From: Candidatus Bathyarchaeota archaeon
GTDB lineage: Archaea; Thermoproteota; Bathyarchaeia; Bathyarchaeales; Bathycorpusculaceae
Length of the DNA stretch: 64,000 nt
NCBI GenBank assembly: GCA_963702095.1
Contig: OY969706.1
Location: 96,001 to 160,000, forward strand
Direction: 5' to 3'
Shown in pieces: positions 6,907 through 23,058 of this stretch; position 1 is the stretch's first letter, and every line of letters starts with the position of its first letter. The position numbers and the translations under genes are program-made. The notes beneath the pieces were generated by a model. It searched no databases. It saw only the letters and a list, made by a program, of their open reading frames with translations, and was not told the origin of the DNA.

Positions 6907-9251
6907 CCTTGGCTGAGGTTCCCATTTACCTTAAAGATTGCAACTTCTTTGTTAATAAAGACGAGGCTAAACAGGGGGTCTTCAAGGAATTTTGGTTCCA
7001 CAGCTTGGTCTCTGCAAACGACGTAGGAAACCTCTCGGTTTTGCAGTTCCAAGCGGTAATTGAAAACAGTTAGTTCAAGAGCTTTTCCTTTGGACGGTTC
7101 AACCATGCGGAGTGGAGACGCCAAGTTGTTGGCTATCTCCGACTGGAAGTAGGCGTTTCTGGTGTCTTTCGTGGCGTAGTATGCTAAGTTATCGGTCACT
7201 GAGTATGCGCCTGCCAGCATCTTGAATGAACCTGAAGAGTTGTCCGCAAAATTGTATTTGGCTTCAACTGTTTTTCCAACGGTAGTACGGTAGGGCACTT
7301 GGTCAAAGATTAATTGCCCCAGTGCTTTCACGCCTTCGTCAATCAAGCAAACCGTGTGGGGATCACTGTAGGGGATTTGTTCTCCGTTGCCGTCAACTTT
7401 GATGTTTACCCATTCAAGGTTAACATTGGGAGACAACGCAGTTATGGTGGATGTTATGTTTGCAAAGCGTGCCTGTGTATACACTGTGGTTGTGAGTGTA
7501 TAGTTGAGGTCATCGTTGCCTCTGGTAACCACTATTGTGGCATGTTGTGTATCGTTTATTATTTGCATGCTTTTTACCGCAAGCTCCGATAAAACAACGT
7601 TGCAATCGTCGCCGTTAACGCTGTAGTACACTTCGGTTTGGTTGCTAAGGGTGAAGAAAGAGTACTTGGCGTAGGTCCAGTTTTGACCCACTAAAATCTC
7701 TGGGTTATGCCTTGAAAGGTACCCGTCCTCTTGAACCTCAATCCATCCATTATCAACTATGTAATCGGTTCCTAGGAGGTTTCTGGCGAAGGTAGCATTA
7801 TCAACTTCCCGTTTCACCGTCAAATATTCAGGTGATACGGCACTCAAAGTGGGTCTCTGCGCAAACCCTCCAAGCCACCAGCCGTAGAGTGCATCTGAAA
7901 CCAACACCGAACCCTGCGGAGTGCTGGTTTTGACCCATTGGAGGGCGTTCCAGCATTCGTTATCCATCGTTTGGTAATAACTCTGCATGGTTTCGCCAAA
8001 GTTGGTTGCTGGAGCAGTGAAAATGGGCAGGGCAACAAAACAGAATAGCAAAAGAAACAGCACAGAGATTGAATAGATTCTCTTCCGTGTTAAACCCGCT
8101 GATAGTCTCTTGGAGGCTCGGTCAAGTTTTCCTTGAAGTCTTTCCAATCGCTTGGGAACTTTAGGTGGCTTAATCTTCAGTTTACCTTGAGCCCTAAGCA
8201 TATCTAGGGATTCAGAGATAAAGCCCGACCCATAATCAATCAAGATGGCTATAAATACCAGAACTGGCAGAACAAGAAAATACAGGAAACGATTGTAGTC
8301 AACGGGCAAACCAACCAAGTATCCCTGTGTAAGGATCAGCGGCAGAAATATCCACATTGCAAACAAAAGCGTTGGCAGGGCGAGGAATTTCTTGTAGAAT
8401 TTTTTGGAGAAGATAAAGAATGCTGCGGTTATAAGGAAAAGCGGCAGGACAACTTCAAGGGATAGAATTCGGGTGGCGATTGTTGCAGCAGCAATCTCAT
8501 CAGAGCCATACTGCGCCAAATAGATCGGAATCGCCTGCACTAAAAATGGAGAGACCAAAATGGCGCCCAAAACAATGGGCAAAAGCCAGTAGAGCGCGGT
8601 TTTTCTTGGAACACCCAGCTTCTTGGGAAAGGCTAAAACAGCGAGGATCATGACGGCTGCTATTAAACTGAACATTACTGCGCTTAGGGAATGCGTCAGA
8701 AGCATTGAAGCTGCCAAGATTGAAGTGGAAACAAGGAACGGCGCTTTTGTGAAGCGGTCTTTTTCTAGGTATAAGTAGAAAGTTAACGGTATAAGCATCA
8801 ACGTTATTACGTTGGGGTATCCTGCCCACATCAACATTTCAACGTCGAAGCGTGAAATCGCAACCAAAAAAGCCACTGCGAAAGCTGCTCCGGTAGACCA
8901 AACTCGCCTAGTTATTAGAAAAGCCGCTAAAACCAGTAGCGCCGAAAAGAGGGATACGACTAGGGCGTGGGCAAAGGGCTCCATCGACGCCGTCATCCCC
9001 GTTATCAGCATGACGCCTGCAGTGAAGATGTGATAGCCTGGAAACGTCAGCGATATGCCGCCGCCGATATGGTAGTAGTTGTAGAAGAAATCGGTGGGGC
9101 CTGACCCTACAATGGAGTAGATGACGCTGTTGTGTAAGCCTATGTCGGCGCCGGGTGGGTAACCCGCCCAAAACATCAGCAGCATGCGGTATAGGAAAGC
9201 GAACGCAAAGATTAGCAGCAGCAAGAGGACTGATTTGTTTGCTTTGGGCAT
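6903..9251 (-). CDS. Multi-pass membrane protein, GT-C-fold glycosyltransferase-like
   Basis: GADIGLH loop after TM1, many TMs, WVKTSTP..SD..YGWW motif in the soluble domain. Confidence 0.7.
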   Translation of the reverse strand: MPKANKSVLLLLLIFAFAFLYRMLLMFWAGYPPGADIGLHNSVIYSIVGSGPTDFFYNYYHIGGGISLTFPGYHIFTAGVMLITGMTASMEPFAHALVVSLFSALLVLAAFLITRRVWSTGAAFAVAFLVAISRFDVEMLMWAGYPNVITLMLIPLTFYLYLEKDRFTKAPFLVSTSILAASMLLTHSLSAVMFSLIAAVMILAVLAFPKKLGVPRKTALYWLLPIVLGAILVSPFLVQAIPIYLAQYGSDEIAAATIATRILSLEVVLPLFLITAAFFIFSKKFYKKFLALPTLLFAMWIFLPLILTQGYLVGLPVDYNRFLYFLVLPVLVFIAILIDYGSGFISESLDMLRAQGKLKIKPPKVPKRLERLQGKLDRASKRLSAGLTRKRIYSISVLFLLLFCFVALPIFTAPATNFGETMQSYYQTMDNECWNALQWVKTSTPQGSVLVSDALYGWWLGGFAQRPTLSAVSPEYLTVKREVDNATFARNLLGTDYIVDNGWIEVQEDGYLSRHNPEILVGQNWTYAKYSFFTLSNQTEVYYSVNGDDCNVVLSELAVKSMQIINDTQHATIVVTRGNDDLNYTLTTTVYTQARFANITSTITALSPNVNLEWVNIKVDGNGEQIPYSDPHTVCLIDEGVKALGQLIFDQVPYRTTVGKTVEAKYNFADNSSGSFKMLAGAYSVTDNLAYYATKDTRNAYFQSEIANNLASPLRMVEPSKGKALELTVFNYRLELQNREVSYVVCRDQAVEPKFLEDPLFSLVFINKEVAIFKVNGNLSQG

Positions 9252-17125: not shown

Positions 17126-17689
17126 TTGAGCCAAAAAATCAAGGTTCTATCTTTCGCAGGCAGCTTAAGAGCAGGCTCCTACAACAAAGCCATGGTCCGT
17201 GCCGCCGTAGAAGTGGCACCGCAAAACGTAACCCTCGAAGTTTTCGATTTAGCTGGCATCCCACCCTACAACGCCGACCTCGAAGCTAACCCGCCGCAGA
17301 AGGTAGTGGAATTCAAAGAGAAAATCCGCCTAGCTGACGCCCTGCTCATCGCTAGCCCCGAATACAACTACTCCATCCCGGGCGTACTCAAAAACGCCAT
17401 CGACTGGGCCAGCCGACCCGCCAAAGGCAACCCATTGGAGGGCAAACCTGTGGCTATCATGAGTGCCTCCACAGGCAGGTTCGGTGGAGCAAGGGCGCAG
17501 TATCATCTGCGGCAGTCCTTTGTATTTCTCGATATGCACCCAGTTAACCGCCCAGAAGTCATGCTCTCAGACGCAGCCCACAACGTTGATCTCGAGGGTA
17601 GGGTAACTAACGAGGTGACGCGGGAGCTTATTGGGCAGTTGCTTGAGGCGTTGGCGGCATGGACAATTAAGCTCAAAACTCCGCCTTAG
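17126..17689 (+). CDS. NADPH-dependent FMN reductase
   Basis: GSLRAGSYN and PEYNYSIPGVLKNAIDW. Confidence 0.92.
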   Translation: MSQKIKVLSFAGSLRAGSYNKAMVRAAVEVAPQNVTLEVFDLAGIPPYNADLEANPPQKVVEFKEKIRLADALLIASPEYNYSIPGVLKNAIDWASRPAKGNPLEGKPVAIMSASTGRFGGARAQYHLRQSFVFLDMHPVNRPEVMLSDAAHNVDLEGRVTNEVTRELIGQLLEALAAWTIKLKTPP

Positions 17690-17718: not shown

Positions 17719-17732
17719 GAAAAGCCTTAAAA
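17719..17732 (+). promoter_or_regulatory. Putative BRE/TATA of the native endoQ promoter
   Basis: GAAAAG-CCTTAAAA about 36 nt upstream of the orphaned ATG at 17768. Confidence 0.45.
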
Positions 17733-17767: not shown

Positions 17768-17815
17768 ATGAGAGTTATAGCGGACTTGCACATCGCCATG
17801 TACACAAATGCTTAA
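17768..17815 (+). pseudogene. Orphaned native 5' end of endoQ (MRVIADLHI then element-derived AMYTNA*)
   Basis: ATG AGA GTT ATA GCG GAC TTG CAC ATC encodes the PHP-domain ADLHI(H) start and is cut at attL. Confidence 0.85.
17780..17794 (+). repeat. attL core
   Basis: GCGGACTTGCACATC identical to 21776-21790. Confidence 0.88.
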
Positions 17816-17851
17816 ATTCGGGTTCACGGTAATACACAATCGGCGATTAGG

Positions 17852-19442
17852 TTGGTACGTAAACGGTTAGACGGTTGGAAATTCGTCAAAGACACCCAAG
17901 AACACCTTTATCCTAAAGAACGGGAAATGCTGGATTTCATCAAGGCTGAGAAGCAGCTCTCAGTTGAGCAACTTTTAGAGAAGTTGAAGTACGGCAAAGC
18001 CCAGAAGAGAACCATCGAAATAACCGCTTACCGTCTCAGGCAGAAGGGCTTAATCGACTCAATCATCACATTGGTAGAGGGCGAGGTTTCTAAGGAGGTC
18101 AGGGAGCTAACTCAGTCGAGCGAAGCACTCAAAGCGTGGACTCGACGCCTCAACTCTCAGGAAACCATCAACAAATTCCTCTATTTGTACCTGCGATATT
18201 TTGGGTGGATTAAGCAAAAGGGCTGCTATCAGACTCCCGACGAAATGATTGAGCATCAACAGAACGCCGAGTCCAACAAGGAGCGCTTCAAGGACATTAC
18301 CCTCATTGAAGACTACCTCTTAGAGTCTAAACTTCCAGCGCCTCAGCAGAAAAGCACCTACACGGCAATAAGGAGCTTCTATAAACACAACAAAGCTGCT
18401 CTTCCAGCCTACCCTATCCAGTTCAAAACCAAGAACAACAAGCCCAAAGTAACTGAGGAACCCATCACTCTGCCGGAAATCAAAGAGTTACTCAAGAACG
18501 CTAACCCCCGAGAGCAAGGCATCTTCCTGTGTTGTCTTCATGCAGGCTTGGACCGCTCAACCTTCTGCAAAGTGTTTAACCTTAATGCATGGCCGCAAAT
18601 TGTCAAGCAGATGGGAACCGAGAACGCTGACGATTGGGACCTCTCAAAAGCTCCTGTCAAAATAGAGTTGCTCCGGCCTAAGACTCAACAGGAATACTAT
18701 AGTTTCCTCTCAGTCGATGCTCTAAAAGCCATCCAAGCATGGCTAAAAGTCCGGGAAACGTTGACAGGTAAGAAGATGAGCGCTGGAGAACCCCTCTTTT
18801 TGACGGCGAGAAGAGAACCCATGCAAGTAGACAACGTGAGCGGCCTCTTCAATCGCTTAGCCATATCTGCGGGGCTGGAAGCAAAGAAGTACGGGAAGGC
18901 CGTCAGAGGTTAGATACCGCTTCCATGCTCACGAGCTCCGAGACACCCTAAAAAGCGCTTGTTCAATGGCGGGGGTGGTGACAGCGGTTTCTGAGTTCAT
19001 CATCGGCCATGAAATCGACTCTCTGCATTATGACAAGAGCCCTCAAGCATACCCAGACCATTTCAGAGCGGAATATCGCAAGGTAGAAGTCCACATCAAT
19101 ATCTTCAGCTCTGAAGAGGCTACGGCCAAAAAACTTGAGGCCGTTGAAGAGAGACTCGCACAGAAGGACTCAATCATAGGGAGCTTAGTTGAGGACAAAA
19201 AAGCATTGGAGAACCGAGTCGAACGCATGGAGCGCATGATGATGAACTTTGAGAGGGTCCTCAACCAACAGCCAGGAGCAACCACAATCCAAGCGGAAGA
19301 GCAGAAACAAGCGGCATGGAAAGAGCATCTAAAACAGCATCCAGAGCTTCAGCTCTCAGTCGAGGACACAGCGGACCCCGTGAAGCTTGAGCAGTTCTTG
19401 AAGGCCTACAAAGGGTTCCAAGAGCAGAAAATCACAGCCTAA
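17852..19442 (+). CDS. Tyrosine recombinase/integrase (apparent +1 frameshift near 18902)
   Basis: HAGLDRS region; after removing one G the frame continues RYRFHAHELRDTL (HxLR) and IGHEIDSLHY (H..Y); N-terminal extension and C-terminal coiled coil. Confidence 0.88.
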
Positions 19443-19578
19443 ACGCCTTTTTTTTCTTTGTGTTTGCTGGGCAAAATAAGGCTTTTTTTGAGCCCTATTT
19501 TTGATTTAAAGGCTGTAAAAACGTGCAACAAGCCTTAAGTACATACTTCGTTCATACCTCAGATTCAGGGTAAAAAGC

Positions 19579-19731
19579 ATGAAGAAAAGTGGAAGAATCA
19601 TATTTCGCGCCGACAAAGCCTTCATCGAAGAAATCTCCCAAATCGCTGAAGAGCTTGACGAAAGTCGGTCGCGTCTGATTAGGAAAGCCATCAAAGAGAA
19701 AATCGCCGCTTTGAGAGGGGTTCAGGCGTGA
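19579..19731 (+). CDS. Small ribbon-helix-helix (CopG-like) protein, 50 aa
   Basis: MKKSGRIIFRADKAFIEEISQIAEELDESRSRLIRKAIKEKI; GTGA overlap with next ORF; absent from the ORF track. Confidence 0.75.
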   Translation: MKKSGRIIFRADKAFIEEISQIAEELDESRSRLIRKAIKEKIAALRGVQA

Positions 19732-20105
19732 CGAACCAAACCACAGCGACAATAGACGACCCCAGCAGAGACGACCATGTGCAGAACTGGGAGCTCTTTC
19801 TTGAAGAGCGCAAAGATGTCGCCGACAGAGCGGTCGCCGAGACTGAAGCGATTGAGCAACGGGCAAAGCAAATTGTTGCCAGCGTGAGAAGGGGTGCGGC
19901 TGAGCGCTTAAATCAGGAAAGGGCGAAGGCCTACAAGGAAGAAGCTGAACGAAAAATCAAGGACGCCCTGACTCCGAGAGAAAAACAAGCCGTCAAAGCC
20001 GTAAGCGAAATGTGGCAGAGACAGCCGCAAGTTCACCCGCCATCATCCGAGCCCAAAGGCGTTCTCGACCTCTACGCGATTCGTCAAAAAAGGATTCGCC
20101 CATAG
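19728..20105 (+). CDS. Element-encoded coiled-coil hypothetical protein
   Basis: 125 aa helical charged ORF, translationally coupled to the RHH gene. Confidence 0.65.
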   Translation: MTNQTTATIDDPSRDDHVQNWELFLEERKDVADRAVAETEAIEQRAKQIVASVRRGAAERLNQERAKAYKEEAERKIKDALTPREKQAVKAVSEMWQRQPQVHPPSSEPKGVLDLYAIRQKRIRP

Positions 20106-20166
20106 ATTTCTTGAGATGGTAGCCCAACCTGCCGTCTGAGAGATTTCTAAAAAGGAGGATGGAAGG

Positions 20167-20817
20167 ATGGGCATAGCAGTAACTCAGAGTCCAAACAAAA
20201 AGCCAGCTAAATCTATGGAAGAGTCCAAAGAAAAAGCCGACTTTTCTCCAAAGATTTTTACGACTCACCCTAAAAGCGGGAAGAGACGCAAGAACAAACG
20301 CTCAATCTTTGAAGATAGTACGGCTAAAAGCCGACTTTCTTCCATAGAACATGAGCTTGGTTTATCGGGGTTATTTGAGGGAGAAGTTTACCATTTAAGC
20401 TTTGATTGCCCTAAACCGCTTGCAAAACTGTTTAAAGAGTCAACAAAGGCTAATGGAACCAGCATTTGCAAAGAACTCCAGAAATATGCCTTATCATATT
20501 GCGCAAACCATGTACTTGAAAAGTCGGCTTTTGGCAGTACTTTGAGCAGGGTTTTGAAGCCTAAACTCACTATTGAGAACTTGAATTTTGAGCAGTACTG
20601 CCAGACAAGACCTCGTCGCTGGATTCCAAAGTCCGCTGAGGAGGTGAAAGTCGTCGATGCTGAAGGGGTGAAAGGCAAGTTCTGCGAGGTTGGCGGGGGA
20701 GCCTGTAAGGAGCCTGCGGTCACTGTGGGCGTCTATTTGCCCACTAAGAAAGAGTACCGTCTCTGCTCTAAGCATGGAAACCTGTTTGCTGAGACATCAA
20801 GCTGGAGGGTTCATTGA
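20167..20817 (+). CDS. Element-encoded hypothetical protein with possible RHH-like segment and C-terminal Cys/His Zn motif
   Basis: GGAGG RBS; HLSFDCPKPLAKLFK..GTSICKEL; C-x5-C...CxxH. Confidence 0.65.
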   Translation: MGIAVTQSPNKKPAKSMEESKEKADFSPKIFTTHPKSGKRRKNKRSIFEDSTAKSRLSSIEHELGLSGLFEGEVYHLSFDCPKPLAKLFKESTKANGTSICKELQKYALSYCANHVLEKSAFGSTLSRVLKPKLTIENLNFEQYCQTRPRRWIPKSAEEVKVVDAEGVKGKFCEVGGGACKEPAVTVGVYLPTKKEYRLCSKHGNLFAETSSWRVH

Positions 20818-21083
20818 TGAGCTGTCAAGGGTGTAAGGGTGAGGCGAAACCCTGCCAAAACCGTAAGGCAAAGGAGACAAGAGAAGGACTCTTTCGTCAT
20901 TTGGACGCTGTAATAAGCCTCTCACTGGAAAAAATCAAGGCTCGGGGCAACTCTGACAGAGCAAAACTGAGCTATGGACGTCTGCTCTGTACCGCCATTT
21001 CCTGTTATGGGGACTTGCTGAAGGACGCGGAGCTGGAGTCTATCGAGGCGCGTCTTGAGAGGCTGGAGGGGGTGAAGTCGTGA
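20814..21083 (+). CDS. Element-encoded hypothetical helical protein
   Basis: 89 aa, coupled overlap, C-terminal ELESIEARLERLE. Confidence 0.65.
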   Translation: MMSCQGCKGEAKPCQNRKAKETREGLFRHLDAVISLSLEKIKARGNSDRAKLSYGRLLCTAISCYGDLLKDAELESIEARLERLEGVKS

Positions 21084-21403
21084 GTAATTTTAAGAAGCGT
21101 GTTGCAGTCTTGGAGAGGTTCCGTGCACCTGTCAACTCTTCGCCGTCTAAGGTCTATGCTGGAGACATCCCAGAGGGTACAAAGGTAATCAAGGGCCGTT
21201 TTTGGCATCCGAACCCTGAAATTTGTAGGACCCTACCTCAACCGACAACTGGTCTTAGCATGTGGAGCCCTGGAGGGGCTGTGCAGGTCTTTGACGAGTC
21301 AAATTGGCATTTGCTGCCCTGCTATGGTTGTGCAAGCTTCGGCCATCAATGCAGTGGACCGGTGAGCGTGAAGCTCAACGTCAAGAGGAGTGCGGATGCA
21401 TGA
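21080..21403 (+). CDS. Element-encoded hypothetical protein
   Basis: GGAGG RBS, GTGA overlap, CxxC..C motif. Confidence 0.6.
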   Translation: MSNFKKRVAVLERFRAPVNSSPSKVYAGDIPEGTKVIKGRFWHPNPEICRTLPQPTTGLSMWSPGGAVQVFDESNWHLLPCYGCASFGHQCSGPVSVKLNVKRSADA

Positions 21404-21573
21404 CTAAAAAGTACCCAAAAGACTACAAAGTCACAAAGGGGCTCTGGAAAAATAGGGGTGAGAATGTGCCTCACTGCGCTAAGTGCCGTCGCCGATTCAA
21501 GGTCGGCATGTGGGTGCACAGGTTGAACAAGCGGCTTCTCTGCCAGAAATGCTATGATGGCATGTTCGTCTAA
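21400..21573 (+). CDS. Element-encoded small zinc-finger protein (57 aa)
   Basis: ATGA overlap; CAKC...CQKC. Confidence 0.65.
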   Translation: MTKKYPKDYKVTKGLWKNRGENVPHCAKCRRRFKVGMWVHRLNKRLLCQKCYDGMFV

Positions 21574-21760
21574 CCTTTTCCGTCGACGGAGGTCTCCCTT
21601 TCCGTCTGGGCTCCCCGGGTTGCAGAATGGGCAAAACTGCGCTCGGGTCCCGGGTGCTGGGCTGGAGCCTTAGCGAAGCTTTTTTTATGTCTCAAGTGTT
21701 TTAGCCCTGTCTGTATGGGAGATGTAGTGAGCGCTTGAGATTAAGGGGGAACCTATTGGT

Positions 21761-23058
21761 TTGACTCGTGTATATGCGGACTTGCACATCCACGGCAGAT
21801 TCAGCCGCGCAACCAGCGAACAGATGAACTTAGAGGAAATTGCCAAGTACGCAAAAATCAAAGCGGCCTCACCCTGGTAGGCACAGGCGACTTCACCCAT
21901 CCTCTGTGGCTACAGGAAATCCGTGAGGTCCTCACCCCCGACACCGACACAGGACTGCTTAAACTTGCCAAAGTGGACTCGCCCGTGCGGTTTATGCTGC
22001 AAACCGAAGTCTGCACCATCTTCGACCACGAGGGGGAATCCAAAAAAGTCCACCACGTCATACTCACACCAAGCCTCGAAACCGCAGACCAAATCAACGA
22101 GCGCCTTGTAAAATTCGGCGACTTAAAAGCCGACGGACGCCCAATACTGGACTGCACCGCACCGCAGCTAGTCGAGGAAGTCATGGCCGTCAGCGGTGAC
22201 AACATGGTGTTCCCCGCGCACGTTTGGACTCCGTGGTTTAGTATCTTCGGTGCTTTCAGCGGTTTCAACACTGTTGAGGAATGCTATCAGGACATGACTA
22301 AGCACATCCACGCGTTGGAAACCGGGTTGTCTTCGGATCCTCCGATGAATTGGCGCCTAAGCGGACTCGACAAATACGCGCTCTTATCGAATAGCGACTG
22401 CCACAGTTTCTGGCCTTGGCGCATCGGCAGAGAAGCCAATGTCTTCGACCTTCCCGACTTCGCTTACAACCAAGTTATTTCAGCCATATCTGACAATGAC
22501 CCAGAACGCTTCAAATTCACCATCGAAACCGACCCCGCCTACGGCAAATACCACTGGACCGGACACCGCAACTGCAAAATCAGCCTCTCACCCCCCGAAG
22601 CCATCAAATTCGGCAACGTCTGCCCAGTCTGCCGCCGCAAACTCACCAAAGGCGTCGAACAACGCATTGAAGAACTCGCCGACCGCCCAGCCACCTACAC
22701 ACGCCCCGACGCACCTGGCTTTAGGCGACTGCTACCGCTCTCAGAAGTCATCGCTGCCGTCGTCGGAACCGACTCGCCCTCGACACAAGCCGTTTGGAAA
22801 ATCTACAATGCACTTGTGGGGAAATTCGGCGACGAATACTCCGTGCTCATCGATGCGCCGCTGGATGCGTTGTCTGCGGTTGCGGATGCACCGTTTGCAC
22901 AGGCGATTCTCAAAGTGCGGGAAGGCACCGCTAAAGTTACGCCAGGCTACGACGGCGTCTATGGACAGCTTGAGTTGGGCGTTGAAACACCGAAGGCTAA
23001 GCCAAGGTCGCCGCCAGTGCCTACAGTGCAGCAGCGGAGCATGAGCGACTTCTGGTAA
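21761..23058 (+). CDS. endoQ: Endonuclease Q family (PHP domain + Zn finger); first 5 codons supplied by the element; apparent frameshift near 21863
   Basis: TTG..ADLHIHGRFSRATS, GTGDFTHP, PAHVWTPW, ETGLSSDP, SNSDCHS, GKYH..GHRNC, CPVC, PGYDGVYG. Confidence 0.9.
21776..21790 (+). repeat. attR core
   Basis: Second copy of the 15 bp repeat, in frame as A-D-L-H-I. Confidence 0.88.

What the first reader, a model, noticed from the sequence alone, without database searches (positions are those of the whole stretch)
17768..23058. Integrative element that inserts into, and rebuilds the start of, the DNA-repair gene endoQ
Seen: a 15 bp direct repeat GCGGACTTGCACATC (codons A-D-L-H-I of the metal-binding motif) at 17780 and 21776 brackets a 3996 bp integrase-bearing insert. 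Left of it lies the stranded native start ATG-AGA-GTT-ATA (MRVI-ADLHI) with a BRE/TATA-like box. Right of it the element provides a look-alike start TTG-ACT-CGT-GTA-TAT (MTRVY-ADLHIH) with its own GGGGGA RBS. Excision would regenerate MRVIADLHIHGRFSRATS exactly. Established: archaeal integrases mostly target tRNA genes; EndoQ incises DNA at deaminated bases; bacterial elements in repair operons (e.g. SpyCI at mutL) act as mutator switches. Inference: the element puts endoQ, and perhaps downstream tldD-pmbA, under its own expression signals while the host repair promoter now faces the integrase. This is a candidate excision-controlled repair switch, which I do not recognise as described in archaea.
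Basis: partly seen in the sequence, partly recalled or inferred. Interest (0 to 1): 0.9.

Follow-up and report, generated by a model that had tools for sequence, protein, structure and literature searches.

The report
Small integrative element inside endoQ start
A 4-kb mobile element carrying an integrase has inserted into the first codons of the archaeal DNA-repair gene endoQ and brings a substitute start for it, an unusual place to integrate, but there is no evidence that it acts as a repair switch.

Summary
An exact 15-bp direct repeat (17780-17794, 21776-21790) brackets a 3,996-bp insert that begins with a tyrosine integrase gene. The nearest relative genome (G007) has the empty site: FMN reductase, then endoQ starting MRVIADLHIHGRF, then tldD and pmbA. 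Its homology to this genome breaks exactly at the repeat.

It is a small cryptic integrative element in a Bathyarchaeia-type genome. It recombined inside codons 5-9 of endoQ. Its right arm supplies an in-frame TTG start, five codons (MTRVY in place of MRVI) and a Shine-Dalgarno-like box at the spacing this genome uses. That is the familiar target-restoring strategy, applied here to a 5' end rather than a 3' end or a tRNA gene.

Both breaks sit at GGCC, and this single-contig assembly has a clear excess of frame breaks at GGCC. I read them as probable assembly errors (about 70%).

The "excision-controlled repair switch" has no support. No reads of the source were available, the element was found in 1 of 120 genomes of the genus (this genome only), and the integrated state does not obviously silence endoQ.

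Verdict: a real element and a new variant of a known kind, of moderate interest.

The parts
17721..17732 (+). Native endoQ promoter-like motif AAAGCCTTAAAA, now stranded on the left of the element
   Evidence: The core of this motif (GCCTTAAA or a one-base variant) stands in the 80 nt upstream of the endoQ start in most of the 19 relatives' loci printed, usually about 35-48 nt before the start. TATA-like words peak at -52 to -38 genome-wide. Its function as a promoter is inferred, not shown.
17768..17815 (+). Stranded native start of endoQ (ATG AGA GTT ATA), the core, and then 6 element codons and a stop. This leaves a 15-codon remnant ORF, MRVIADLHIAMYTNA.
   Evidence: Read. The first 9 codons are identical in protein to the start of the G007 endoQ.
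17780..17794 (+). attL core: left copy of the 15-bp direct repeat, covering endoQ codons 5-9 (A-D-L-H-I)
17810..17816 (+). TATA-like box CTTAAAT, 36-42 nt before the integrase start
   Evidence: Sequence. The spacing falls in the genome-wide peak. Inferred only.
17852..18913 (+). Tyrosine integrase, N-terminal 353 codons as recorded. The frame ends at TAG 18911-18913, after an extra base that follows GGCC at 18898-18901.
   Evidence: Pfam Phage_integrase scores 23.7 bits, below the 27.1 cut-off, because the domain is cut. The protein is 49-63% identical to intact relatives P0001 and P0003. Those relatives pass the cut-off at 38.9 and 38.3 bits.
18903..19442 (+). Integrase C-terminal part in the next frame. 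It carries the catalytic motifs RFHAHELRD (H-x-x-R) and GHEIDSLHY (H...Y), followed by a helical tail of about 110 residues.
   Evidence: Translation. It aligns with the intact relative across the break (SEVRYRFH).
19579..19731 (+). 50-aa ribbon-helix-helix (CopG/Arc-like) protein
   Evidence: Pfam RHH_1, E 9e-4, 19.6 bits against a 20.5 cut-off. PHROG Arc-like repressor, E 3e-4. These are weak hits.
19728..20105 (+). ORF of 125 aa, function unknown
   Evidence: No Pfam or NCBIfam hit. One weak PHROG hit, E 1.6e-3.
20167..20817 (+). ORF of 216 aa. The model shows a strand-helix-helix stretch (residues 80-121) and a small Cys/His C-terminal module. The gene is shared with other metagenomic elements.
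   Evidence: 33 homologues, all unnamed. AlphaFold mean pLDDT 64.7. No PDB fold match with E at or below 0.001.
20814..21083 (+). ORF of 89 aa, function unknown. It has a homologue in the metG-adjacent element of L064.
   Evidence: tblastn, 46% identity, E 1.6e-16. No family hit.
21080..21403 (+). ORF of 107 aa, function unknown
   Evidence: no family hit.
21400..21573 (+). ORF of 57 aa with paired Cys motifs (zinc-ribbon-like)
   Evidence: Weak Pfam LIM hit, E 4.7e-4, below the cut-off.
21574..21760 (+). Non-coding right arm of the element. It holds a palindrome (21579-21588), a T7 run with a TATA-like word (21681-21690) and the Shine-Dalgarno-like GGGGGA (21746-21751).
   Evidence: G-rich SD-like words show a small rise at -16 to -10 in this genome, and the canonical GGAGG-type words peak at -14 to -10. 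No promoter was identified with confidence.
21761..21775 (+). Element-supplied substitute start of endoQ: TTG ACT CGT GTA TAT (M-T-R-V-Y)
   Evidence: It is the only in-frame start between the TAA at 21743 and the core. TTG is also the first in-frame start codon before the [RK]-[VI]-I-[AS]-D motif of the native endoQ in 6 of the 19 relatives' loci printed. The codons CGT GTA match those used for R-V by the more distant relative L020.
21776..21790 (+). attR core: right copy of the 15-bp repeat
21761..23058 (+). endoQ as recorded: 34 codons (21761-21862), two extra bases (21863-21864) beside GGCC, then 397 codons in the next frame (21865-23058)
   Evidence: PfuEndoQ at E 5.6e-52 over residues 37-390 and at E 0.013 for the N-terminal 36 aa including DLHIH. 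91% protein identity to G007 with no internal stop. The two bases are the only gap in 4.1 kb of alignment to G007.

Best explanation
This is a small (about 4.0 kb) cryptic integrative element of a Bathyarchaeia-type archaeon. It carries a tyrosine integrase, two putative ribbon-helix-helix DNA binders and four small ORFs of unknown function.

How it most likely works:
- Integration. Its integrase recombined a 15-bp core on the element with the identical 15 bp that encode A-D-L-H-I at codons 5-9 of endoQ. The native promoter, start codon and first four codons were left behind on the left, where they now face the integrase gene.
- Target restoration. The element's right arm carries an in-frame TTG, five replacement codons and a Shine-Dalgarno-like box. 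A near-native EndoQ (MTRVY-ADLHIH... instead of MRVI-ADLHIH...) can therefore still be made. This is the usual target-restoring strategy of integrative elements, applied to a 5' end.
- Frame breaks. The breaks in the integrase and in endoQ in the record are most likely base-calling or assembly errors at GGCC sites.

What is shown and what is inferred:
- Shown: the repeat, the empty site in a relative, the gene identities, and the in-frame start.
- Inferred: that the TTG is used, that the hybrid EndoQ is active, that the breaks are errors, and that the element is still mobile.
For: Integration:
- The exact 15-bp repeat is found only at the two borders.
- The G007 empty site has the same gene order, and homology breaks exactly at the repeat.
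- The integrase gene starts 58 nt inside attL. Its intact relatives of about 450-500 aa pass Pfam Phage_integrase.
- The element DNA was found in 1 of 120 genomes of the genus, G000 itself. That fits a recent gain.

Restoration of endoQ:
- TTG at 21761 is the only in-frame start after the TAA at 21743.
- GGGGGA sits at -15 to -10, in the zone where SD-like words rise in this genome. The canonical words peak at -14 to -10, and the G-rich words rise more weakly at -16 to -10.
- TTG is the first in-frame start before the conserved motif of endoQ in 6 of the 19 relatives' loci printed.
- The replacement keeps R-V-hydrophobic, with codons that a more distant endoQ also uses.
- The residue before the A/G-DLHIH motif is not conserved between this genus (I) and PfuEndoQ (D).
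- The 397 downstream codons are open and 91% identical to G007, the same level as tldD (90%) and pmbA (89%).

Breaks read as errors:
- Both lie at GGCC.
- Of 273 stop-free frames of G007 with a counterpart in G000, 14 junctions in 13 frames are frame-split in G000. Seven of those junctions hold GGCC in G000, where about 0.6 would be expected from 0.91 GGCC per kb over 686 nt. At two more junctions G007 has GGCC.
- Genome-wide, frame-switch signatures occur at 72 of 2,675 GGCC sites (2.7%). The 18 other 4-mers tested gave 0.9-1.7%, and random positions gave 295 of 20,000 (1.5%).
- The genome is a single contig yet only 90% complete by marker genes.
Against: - As recorded, both key genes are broken. 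If the breaks are real, the integrase is dead and endoQ is a pseudogene.
- The GGCC argument is statistical. No reads of the source could be laid.
- Five of the 14 frame-split junctions show no GGCC in either genome. The enrichment by flanking base is based on small counts.
- No promoter for the relocated endoQ was identified with confidence. The T7 run at 21681-21687 could equally be a terminator.
- I to Y at the residue before the motif, plus one added residue, are untested changes.
- No second case of this element or of any integrase at endoQ was found. It is absent from 19 relatives' endoQ loci, from 29 class-level integrase loci, and from 27 metagenome loci and 5 genome-collection loci. 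A co-evolved target-restoring arm therefore rests on one example.
Confidence: 0.7

Rival explanations
1. Dead-end insertion. The element knocked out endoQ and has itself decayed. On this reading the 2-base insertion in endoQ and the 1-base insertion in the integrase are real mutations, the TTG start is a coincidence, and the locus is a fossil with no function for host or element.
For: - Both frames are broken in the record.
- An in-frame start within a few codons of a junction is not rare by chance. My rough estimate is about 1 in 4, not a tool result.
- Another species of the genus (G016) also has a frame-broken endoQ at a non-GGCC site.
- 6 of 41 relatives searched gave no endoQ match, so the gene may be dispensable.
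Against: - Both breaks sit at GGCC, where this assembly has a several-fold excess of frame breaks.
- endoQ downstream of the break is open for 397 codons and as conserved as its neighbours.
- All six small element ORFs are intact and tightly packed, five of them with 4-nt overlaps.
- The two repeat copies are identical, 15 of 15.
Confidence: 0.2
2. Excision-controlled repair switch. Reversible excision and re-integration moves endoQ between its native promoter and the element's signals, changing repair capacity or mutation rate. This would be analogous to bacterial regulatory-switch prophages and to the island at mutL in Streptococcus pyogenes.
For: - The geometry allows it. Recombination at the repeat would restore the native gene exactly.
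- The native promoter-like motif now points at the integrase.
- In the circular form the right arm would lie upstream of the integrase, so the 5' regions of endoQ and int are swapped by integration.
- The repeats are identical, and the integrase is intact apart from the suspect base.
Against: - There is no evidence of excision. No source reads were available and no empty-site or circle junction could be sought. No free copy was found in the viral contigs.
- The integrated state keeps a start-bearing endoQ, unlike known switches, which disrupt or silence the target.
- The integrase has its own TATA-like box.
- The element is present in only 1 of 120 genus genomes. A host-beneficial switch would be expected to be kept more widely.
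- The nearest integrase relatives simply sit behind housekeeping genes: metG three times and a TGT gene once.
Confidence: 0.08
3. Artefact: a chance repeat or an assembly chimera rather than a real insertion.
For: The assembly has systematic small errors. Only one genome shows the insert.
Against: - A 15-nt exact repeat is expected about 0.03 times in 7.5 kb (my arithmetic), and 0 of 100 shuffles gave two copies.
- The repeat coincides to the base with the break in homology to G007.
- An integrase gene lies next to one copy.
- The element's integrase and ORFs have homologues in other archaeal records.
Confidence: 0.02

Closest known systems
Integrated mobile elements of Thaumarchaeota, especially the 'cryptic integrated elements' and those inserted in protein-coding genes (Krupovic et al. 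2019, PMC6563490; passages read)
   Same: - Tyrosine-integrase elements bounded by short att repeats. The median there is 17 bp; here it is 15.
- Verified the same way, by comparison with an empty site in a related genome.
- Integration into the end of a protein gene with the reading frame kept open. Their example has the element supplying a new stop codon.
- Small elements with no recognisable replication, virion or conjugation genes.
   Different: - All 14 protein-gene integrations reported there are in 3'-distal regions. Here the target is the 5' end, so the element must supply a start codon, a ribosome-binding site and probably a promoter rather than a few C-terminal codons and a stop.
- The host is a different class (record titles of relatives say Bathyarchaeia).
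- The target gene, endoQ, is not in their main-text list. Their Table S2 could not be seen because supplements are closed.
Non-suicidal archaeal tyrosine integrases, as opposed to SSV-type 'suicidal' integrases (review by Badel et al. 2021, PMC8371274; passages and section 19 read)
   Same: The att site lies outside the integrase gene, 58 nt upstream of its start. Integration therefore leaves the integrase gene whole, as with pNOB8-type and bacterial-type integrases.
   Different: - There is no tool-based assignment to any named subfamily. No solved structure matches by sequence, and the Pfam score is only 38-39 bits.
- The protein has a long N-terminal region and a helical tail of about 110 residues after the catalytic tyrosine.
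- The att core is much shorter than the 40-60 bp quoted for Sulfolobales and Methanococcales elements.
Bacterial regulatory-switch prophages and islands ('active lysogeny'). Examples: phiSa3 in hlb (search listing only); the SpyCI island at mutL and the comK prophage of Listeria (both recalled, not read here).
   Same: A mobile element sits inside or at the 5' end of a host gene. SpyCI also sits in a DNA-repair gene. In each case precise excision would restore the native arrangement.
   Different: - Those elements disrupt or silence the target while integrated, and they have been shown to excise reversibly.
- Here the integrated state appears to preserve an expressible gene, and no excision is shown.
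- This locus fails the one defining feature that could be tested (see membership test).
Endonuclease Q of Pyrococcus furiosus (PDB 5zb8, 7k30)
   Same: Sequence match over residues 37-390 (E 5.6e-52), and over the N-terminal DLHIH-containing segment. Relatives in the genus have the full uninterrupted gene.
   Different: In this genome the first four or five residues are element-derived, and the record has a 2-base frame break after codon 34. The TIGR00375 score of the downstream part alone (195 bits) is below its 326.6 cut-off.

Membership tests
Site-specific integrative element (tyrosine-recombinase type) | Direct repeats (attL/attR) at both borders | tested here: met
   15 of 15 identical, and the only two copies in the window.
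Site-specific integrative element (tyrosine-recombinase type) | An unoccupied attB in a related genome, with homology breaking at the repeat | tested here: met
   G007 is empty at this site. blastn breakpoints fall at window 17793 and 21776. The core in G007 differs at 1 of 15 positions.
Site-specific integrative element (tyrosine-recombinase type) | An integrase gene at one border | tested here: met
   The integrase starts 58 nt from attL.
Site-specific integrative element (tyrosine-recombinase type) | Excision or a circular form (attP junction) observed | not testable with these tools
   Only one public run held 5% of the sampled words. It covered none of the element interior and no junction. 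The attL-side 26-mer has 0 hits in viral contigs.
Tyrosine recombinase (Pfam PF00589) | Family profile match above the curated cut-off | tested here: inconclusive
   The window's N-terminal piece scores 23.7 bits against a 27.1 cut-off, because the domain is cut by the frame break. The intact relatives P0001 and P0003 score 38.9 and 38.3 bits.
Tyrosine recombinase (Pfam PF00589) | Catalytic H-x-x-R, second His and the Tyr nucleophile | tested here: met
   RFHAHELRD and GHEIDSLHY are present in the second frame. H, E, R, D and Y-D-K are invariant in a 20-sequence alignment of the family. Naming them as catalytic residues is from recall of the family.
Tyrosine recombinase (Pfam PF00589) | A single uninterrupted reading frame | tested here: not met
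   One extra base after GGCC at 18898-18901 splits the gene in the record. This is probably an assembly error, but that is not proven.
SSV-type 'suicidal' integrase | attP lies inside the integrase ORF, so integration splits the gene at att | tested here: not met
   The core lies upstream of the integrase start (17780-17794 against 17852). The split in the gene is a frame break 1 kb away from att.
Cryptic integrated element in the sense of PMC6563490 | Integrase-bearing element without recognisable virion, conjugation or replication genes | tested here: met
   Pfam, NCBIfam and PHROGs give only the integrase and weak RHH hits. ORF216 has no fold match. No relative was found in viral contigs.
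Endonuclease Q | Homology to characterised EndoQ over the PHP-like core and the C-terminal part | tested here: met
   5zb8 at E 5.6e-52, residues 37-390. The N-terminal DLHIH segment aligns to residues 4-34.
Endonuclease Q | Intact gene | tested here: not met
   Two extra bases at 21863-21864 in the record. This is probably an assembly error, but that is not proven.
Regulatory-switch element ('active lysogeny') | The target gene is disrupted or silenced while the element is integrated | tested here: not met
   An in-frame TTG with an SD-like box restores a full-length frame apart from the suspect 2-base break. Expression itself was not measured.
Regulatory-switch element ('active lysogeny') | Reversible, regulated excision without loss of the element | not testable with these tools
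   No reads of the source and no RNA holder were listed.

The most novel reading that the evidence does not exclude
Integration swaps the 5' control regions of two genes. In the circle, the element's right arm drives the integrase. In the chromosome, the same arm drives endoQ, while the host's endoQ promoter drives the integrase. If so, the element would place a deaminated-base repair nuclease under its own (RHH-repressor) control and tie its own excision to the host signal that normally induces endoQ. That would make it an archaeal mobile element acting as a DNA-damage-coupled repair or mutator switch, or one that tunes EndoQ to protect its own DNA.
Probability: 0.08. Interest if true: 0.75.

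Novelty: new variant of a known kind. Interest (0 to 1): 0.4.

Why it matters
Site-specific elements that restore the gene they insert into are well known for tRNA genes and for the 3' ends of protein genes, including in archaea. A 5'-end case is different. The element must bring a start codon, a ribosome-binding site and probably a promoter, so the host gene's regulation passes to the element. This locus gives a clean, base-resolved example in Bathyarchaeia, a group with almost no described mobile elements. It also gives an integrase clade whose closest members all sit next to protein genes rather than tRNAs. Such integrases with short, defined att cores are candidates for genetic tools.

The practical lesson is separate. 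This assembly has frame breaks concentrated at GGCC, which would mislead any pseudogene call made from it.

Tried and rejected
Reads. The look-up of sequencing runs listed one DNA run holding 5% of the sampled words and no RNA holder. Laying its contigs gave only short, diverged pieces on hypA/ParA-like, FMN reductase, endoQ and tldD. There were no joints, and nothing lay on the element interior apart from one bin of depth 0.26.

Free or second copies.
- The integrase relative P0001 against viral contigs gave no relative.
- The ORF216 alignment against viral contigs gave none.
- A 26-nt attL-side stretch against viral contigs gave 0 hits.
- Element DNA 19450-21775 in 120 genus genomes matched only G000.
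- The window integrase in G000 gave one copy. The family profile finds a second, distant member at about 1.067 Mb, which was not followed.

Other integrases at endoQ. None was found in any of these sets:
- the 19 relatives' endoQ loci;
- the 5 genome-collection loci;
- the 27 metagenome loci with ORF216 homologues;
- the 29 class-level integrase loci, where only +-1.5 kb was held and an endoQ stub of 9 codons would escape tblastn.

att of the metG-adjacent relatives. Only 11-nt candidate repeats turned up, and homology to G000 ends 8-37 nt after the metG stop. These att sites are not resolved.

Function of ORF216. The AlphaFold model has mean pLDDT 64.7. Foldseek against the PDB gave nothing with E at or below 0.001. 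The RHH-like reading rests on the secondary-structure pattern only.

A narrower error motif (AGGCCT with an inserted base). Counts by flanking base were too small to settle it, so I claim only GGCC.

A methylase to explain GGCC errors. Two C5-methyltransferase loci and N4/N6 methyltransferase matches exist, but their specificity is unknown. This is not used as evidence.

Literature.
- 'EndoQ' with 'integrase' gave 2 papers, neither about integration by title (listing only).
- No archaeal regulatory-switch element appeared among the 12 papers listed of 92.
- The supplementary tables of PMC6563490, which list all integration sites, are closed and might hold a 5'-end case.

Full report
Observation. 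The 15-bp sequence GCGGACTTGCACATC occurs exactly twice in the window, at 17780-17794 and 21776-21790. No other hit appears at up to two mismatches, and 0 of 100 shuffles gave two copies. The start-to-start spacing is 3,996 bp. The left copy is preceded by ATG AGA GTT ATA. The right copy is preceded by TTG ACT CGT GTA TAT, with GGGGGA 10-15 nt upstream of the TTG.

Gene identities. The ORF upstream (17126-17689) is an NADPH-dependent FMN reductase (Pfam E 1.7e-47). Downstream of endoQ lie TldD and PmbA homologues. The gene to the right of the insert is endoQ. Its main part matches P. furiosus EndoQ at E 5.6e-52 over residues 37-390. The first 36 residues, including DLHIH, align to residues 4-34.

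The insert opens with a tyrosine integrase. The recorded N-terminal ORF (353 codons) scores just under the Pfam cut-off because the domain is cut. The following frame carries RFHAHELRD and GHEIDSLHY. The two pieces together align end to end with intact relatives of 449 and 496 aa, and those relatives pass the Pfam cut-off.

The rest of the insert is one co-oriented, tightly packed set of six small ORFs:
- a 50-aa RHH protein (weak hits);
- a 216-aa protein with 33 unnamed metagenomic homologues and a strand-helix-helix pattern in a mediocre model;
- four ORFs without any family hit.

Nothing resembles a capsid, a replication initiator or a conjugation gene. No relative is present in the viral-contig collection.

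Empty site. A search of 41 relatives with EndoQ found the gene in 35. In 18 of the 19 relatives' loci examined, the motif [AS]-D-[LM]-H-[IV]-H stands in the same open frame as the rest of endoQ. It is preceded by a basic residue, V/A/I and I, with an ATG, GTG or TTG start just before. The exception is L006, which is frame-broken.

The closest genome, G007 (91% EndoQ identity), has the order HypA (opposite strand), FMN reductase, endoQ (MRVIADLHIHGRFSRATSEQ...), tldD. It has no insert. G007 contig 33 aligns to window 25872-21776 and to window 17793-14114. The two alignments overlap in G007 by the core and are separated in G000 by the insert. The three-way alignment shows that the left flank of G000 is the native upstream region and start, and that the right flank continues the native coding sequence. 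The insertion is real, site-specific and precise to the base.

- The integrase frame ends at a TAG (18911-18913) because of one extra base after GGCC (18898-18901). Relatives read ...KKYGKASEVRYRFH... straight through.
- endoQ carries two extra bases (21863-21864) next to GGCC (21865-21868). This is the only gap in 4.1 kb of alignment to G007.

Taken at face value, the element is immobile and endoQ is dead.

Are the breaks real? Both sit at GGCC, so I tested whether that is a property of the assembly.
- I compared 426 kb of G007 with G000. Of 405 stop-free frames of at least 150 codons, 273 had a counterpart. These are frames, not curated genes, and some are shadow frames.
- Of the 273, 13 frames with 14 junctions are split between frames in G000. 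Seven junction contexts, 686 nt in total across all 14, contain GGCC. About 0.6 would be expected from the genome's 0.91 GGCC per kb.
- At two more junctions G007 has GGCC where G000 has an altered string. Five junctions have no GGCC.
- Genome-wide, an ORF-geometry signature of a frame switch is found at 72 of 2,675 GGCC sites (2.7%). The 18 other 4-mers gave 0.9-1.7%, and 20,000 random positions gave 1.5%.
- The genome is one contig but scores 90% complete.
- endoQ downstream of its break is open for 397 codons. It is as similar to G007 (91%) as tldD (90%) and pmbA (89%) are.

I conclude, at about 70%, that both breaks are systematic base-calling errors, possibly linked to methylation. This is not proven, because the source reads are not available here.

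How the element treats its target. The core lies in codons 5-9 of endoQ, so integration removes the native promoter region, the start and four codons from the gene.

On the left these remain as a 15-codon remnant (17768-17815). It sits behind a motif, AAAGCCTTAAAA, whose core stands upstream of the endoQ start in most of the 19 relatives' loci printed. The position is the one where TATA-like words peak genome-wide.

On the right, several features point to a substitute start:
- TTG 21761 is the only in-frame start after the stop at 21743.
- GGGGGA lies at -15 to -10, in the zone where SD-like words rise in this genome.
- TTG is the first in-frame start before the conserved motif in 6 of the 19 relatives' loci.
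- The five replacement codons keep R-V-hydrophobic. They use CGT GTA, as the endoQ of a more distant species of the genus does.
- The residue before the motif differs anyway between this genus and PfuEndoQ.

This looks like a diverged copy of an endoQ 5' end carried by the element, the counterpart of the replacement 3' ends that tRNA- and gene-targeting elements carry. I could not identify a promoter for the relocated gene with confidence. A T7/TATA-like word at 21681-21690 could be a promoter or a terminator, and read-through from the co-oriented element operon is possible.

Relatives of the integrase.
- An exhaustive profile-free search found 968 representatives at E up to 0.001, of which 67 were at E up to 1e-30.
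- In 401 genomes of the class, 78 have a member at E up to 1e-15.
- The three close relatives (48-54% identity) lie directly behind metG, in records titled Bathyarchaeia, Bathyarchaeota or 'uncultured archaeon'. A decayed copy lies behind a TGT gene.
- Of 29 class-level loci, only one has a tRNA gene within the roughly 1.5 kb held on each side.

None of these is next to endoQ. The element's DNA is found in 1 of 120 genus genomes, G000 itself. So this clade habitually uses protein-gene-proximal sites, and the endoQ insertion is a recent, so far unique event.

Mechanism and rivals.
- Best reading (0.7): a cryptic integrative element that integrated by tyrosine-recombinase crossover in a 15-bp core at the endoQ 5' end and restores the gene with its own start.
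- Dead-end insertion (0.2): this depends on the frame breaks being real.
- Regulatory switch (0.08): the geometry permits it, since integration does swap the 5' regions of endoQ and the integrase. But it lacks any evidence of excision. It fails the one testable defining feature, because the target is not evidently silenced when occupied. It is also weakened by the integrase's own TATA-like box at -42 to -36 and by the element's rarity.
- Artefact (0.02): excluded for practical purposes.

Comparison with what is known.
- Krupovic et al. 2019 (PMC6563490, passages read) describe 68 thaumarchaeal integrated elements with a median att length of 17 bp. [quoted passage not shown] They also describe a class of cryptic integrated elements.
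- The review by Badel et al. 2021 (PMC8371274, section 19 read) lists a few more archaeal intragenic att sites and notes that none has been tested.
- A 2026 survey (PMC13626063, passages read) reports that most delimited proviruses insert into coding sequences or RNA genes.

The kind is therefore known. What differs here is the 5'-end target with replacement of the start, the host class, and the target gene. A search for 'EndoQ' with 'integrase' returned two papers that are unrelated by title (listing only). Supplementary tables that could hold a 5'-end precedent are closed.

Verdict. I rate it a new variant of a known kind, with interest 0.4.

Noticed in passing
whole genome G000; in the window at 18898-18902 and 21863-21868: Frame breaks in this single-contig assembly cluster at GGCC: 7 of 14 split junctions against G007, and 2.7% against about 1.5% genome-wide for a frame-switch signature. 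GGCC is itself about 3-fold under-represented in G000 (0.91 per kb against 2.99 expected) and in relatives' loci (0.83 against 2.31). Pseudogene calls from this record need care.
   Followed up: partly
G000:C1:550833-551827 and 2927482-2928645 (outside the window): Two C5-cytosine methyltransferase loci are present. One is itself split between two frames, and that split is not at a GGCC. Their specificity is unknown.
   Followed up: partly
L062 5262-8497; L063/L022; L064 5194-8497; L023 50-1875: The closest integrase relatives (48-54% identity) sit directly behind metG in three records titled Bathyarchaeia, Bathyarchaeota or 'uncultured archaeon'. A decayed copy sits behind a TGT gene. Their att sites could not be resolved. 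The L064 element also carries a homologue of the window's 89-aa ORF and a 570-aa protein with no Pfam hit.
   Followed up: partly
L006 (G016), endoQ codons about 36-40: Another species of the genus has a 1-base deletion that breaks endoQ a few codons from the G000 break, not at a GGCC. This could be a separate assembly error or a real pseudogene.
   Followed up: partly
G007:C33:2171-2345 and 7742-7860; L063 4840-4980; many places in G000 outside the window: Dispersed short repeats. A unit of about 165-175 nt from the relative hits at least 35 places in G000 at 74-82% identity, and a unit of about 117 nt hits at least 8 places. These may be MITE-like elements.
   Followed up: no
window 21579-21606, and 21768-21775 with 17798-17805: The right arm begins with the palindrome CCGTCGACGG and a direct repeat TTTCCGTC (two copies). 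In the modelled circular junction the core is flanked by GTGTATAT and ATGTACAC (7 of 8 inverted). These are candidate integrase-binding or terminator features.
   Followed up: no
window 19100-19442: The integrase has a helical tail of about 110 residues after the catalytic tyrosine. A comparable tail is present in relatives P0003, P0007, P0009 and the L064 integrase. Its function is unknown.
   Followed up: no
L068 5664-8420 (metagenome contig): A 62%-identical homologue of the 216-aa ORF lies on an 8.9-kb contig next to a different Phage_integrase protein (482 aa, 38.1 bits). The ORF therefore travels with more than one kind of integrase-bearing element.
   Followed up: partly
G000:C1:1066868-1067587 (outside the window): A second, distant member of the same integrase family is present in this genome (E 3.8e-16, open frame 507 aa).
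   Followed up: no
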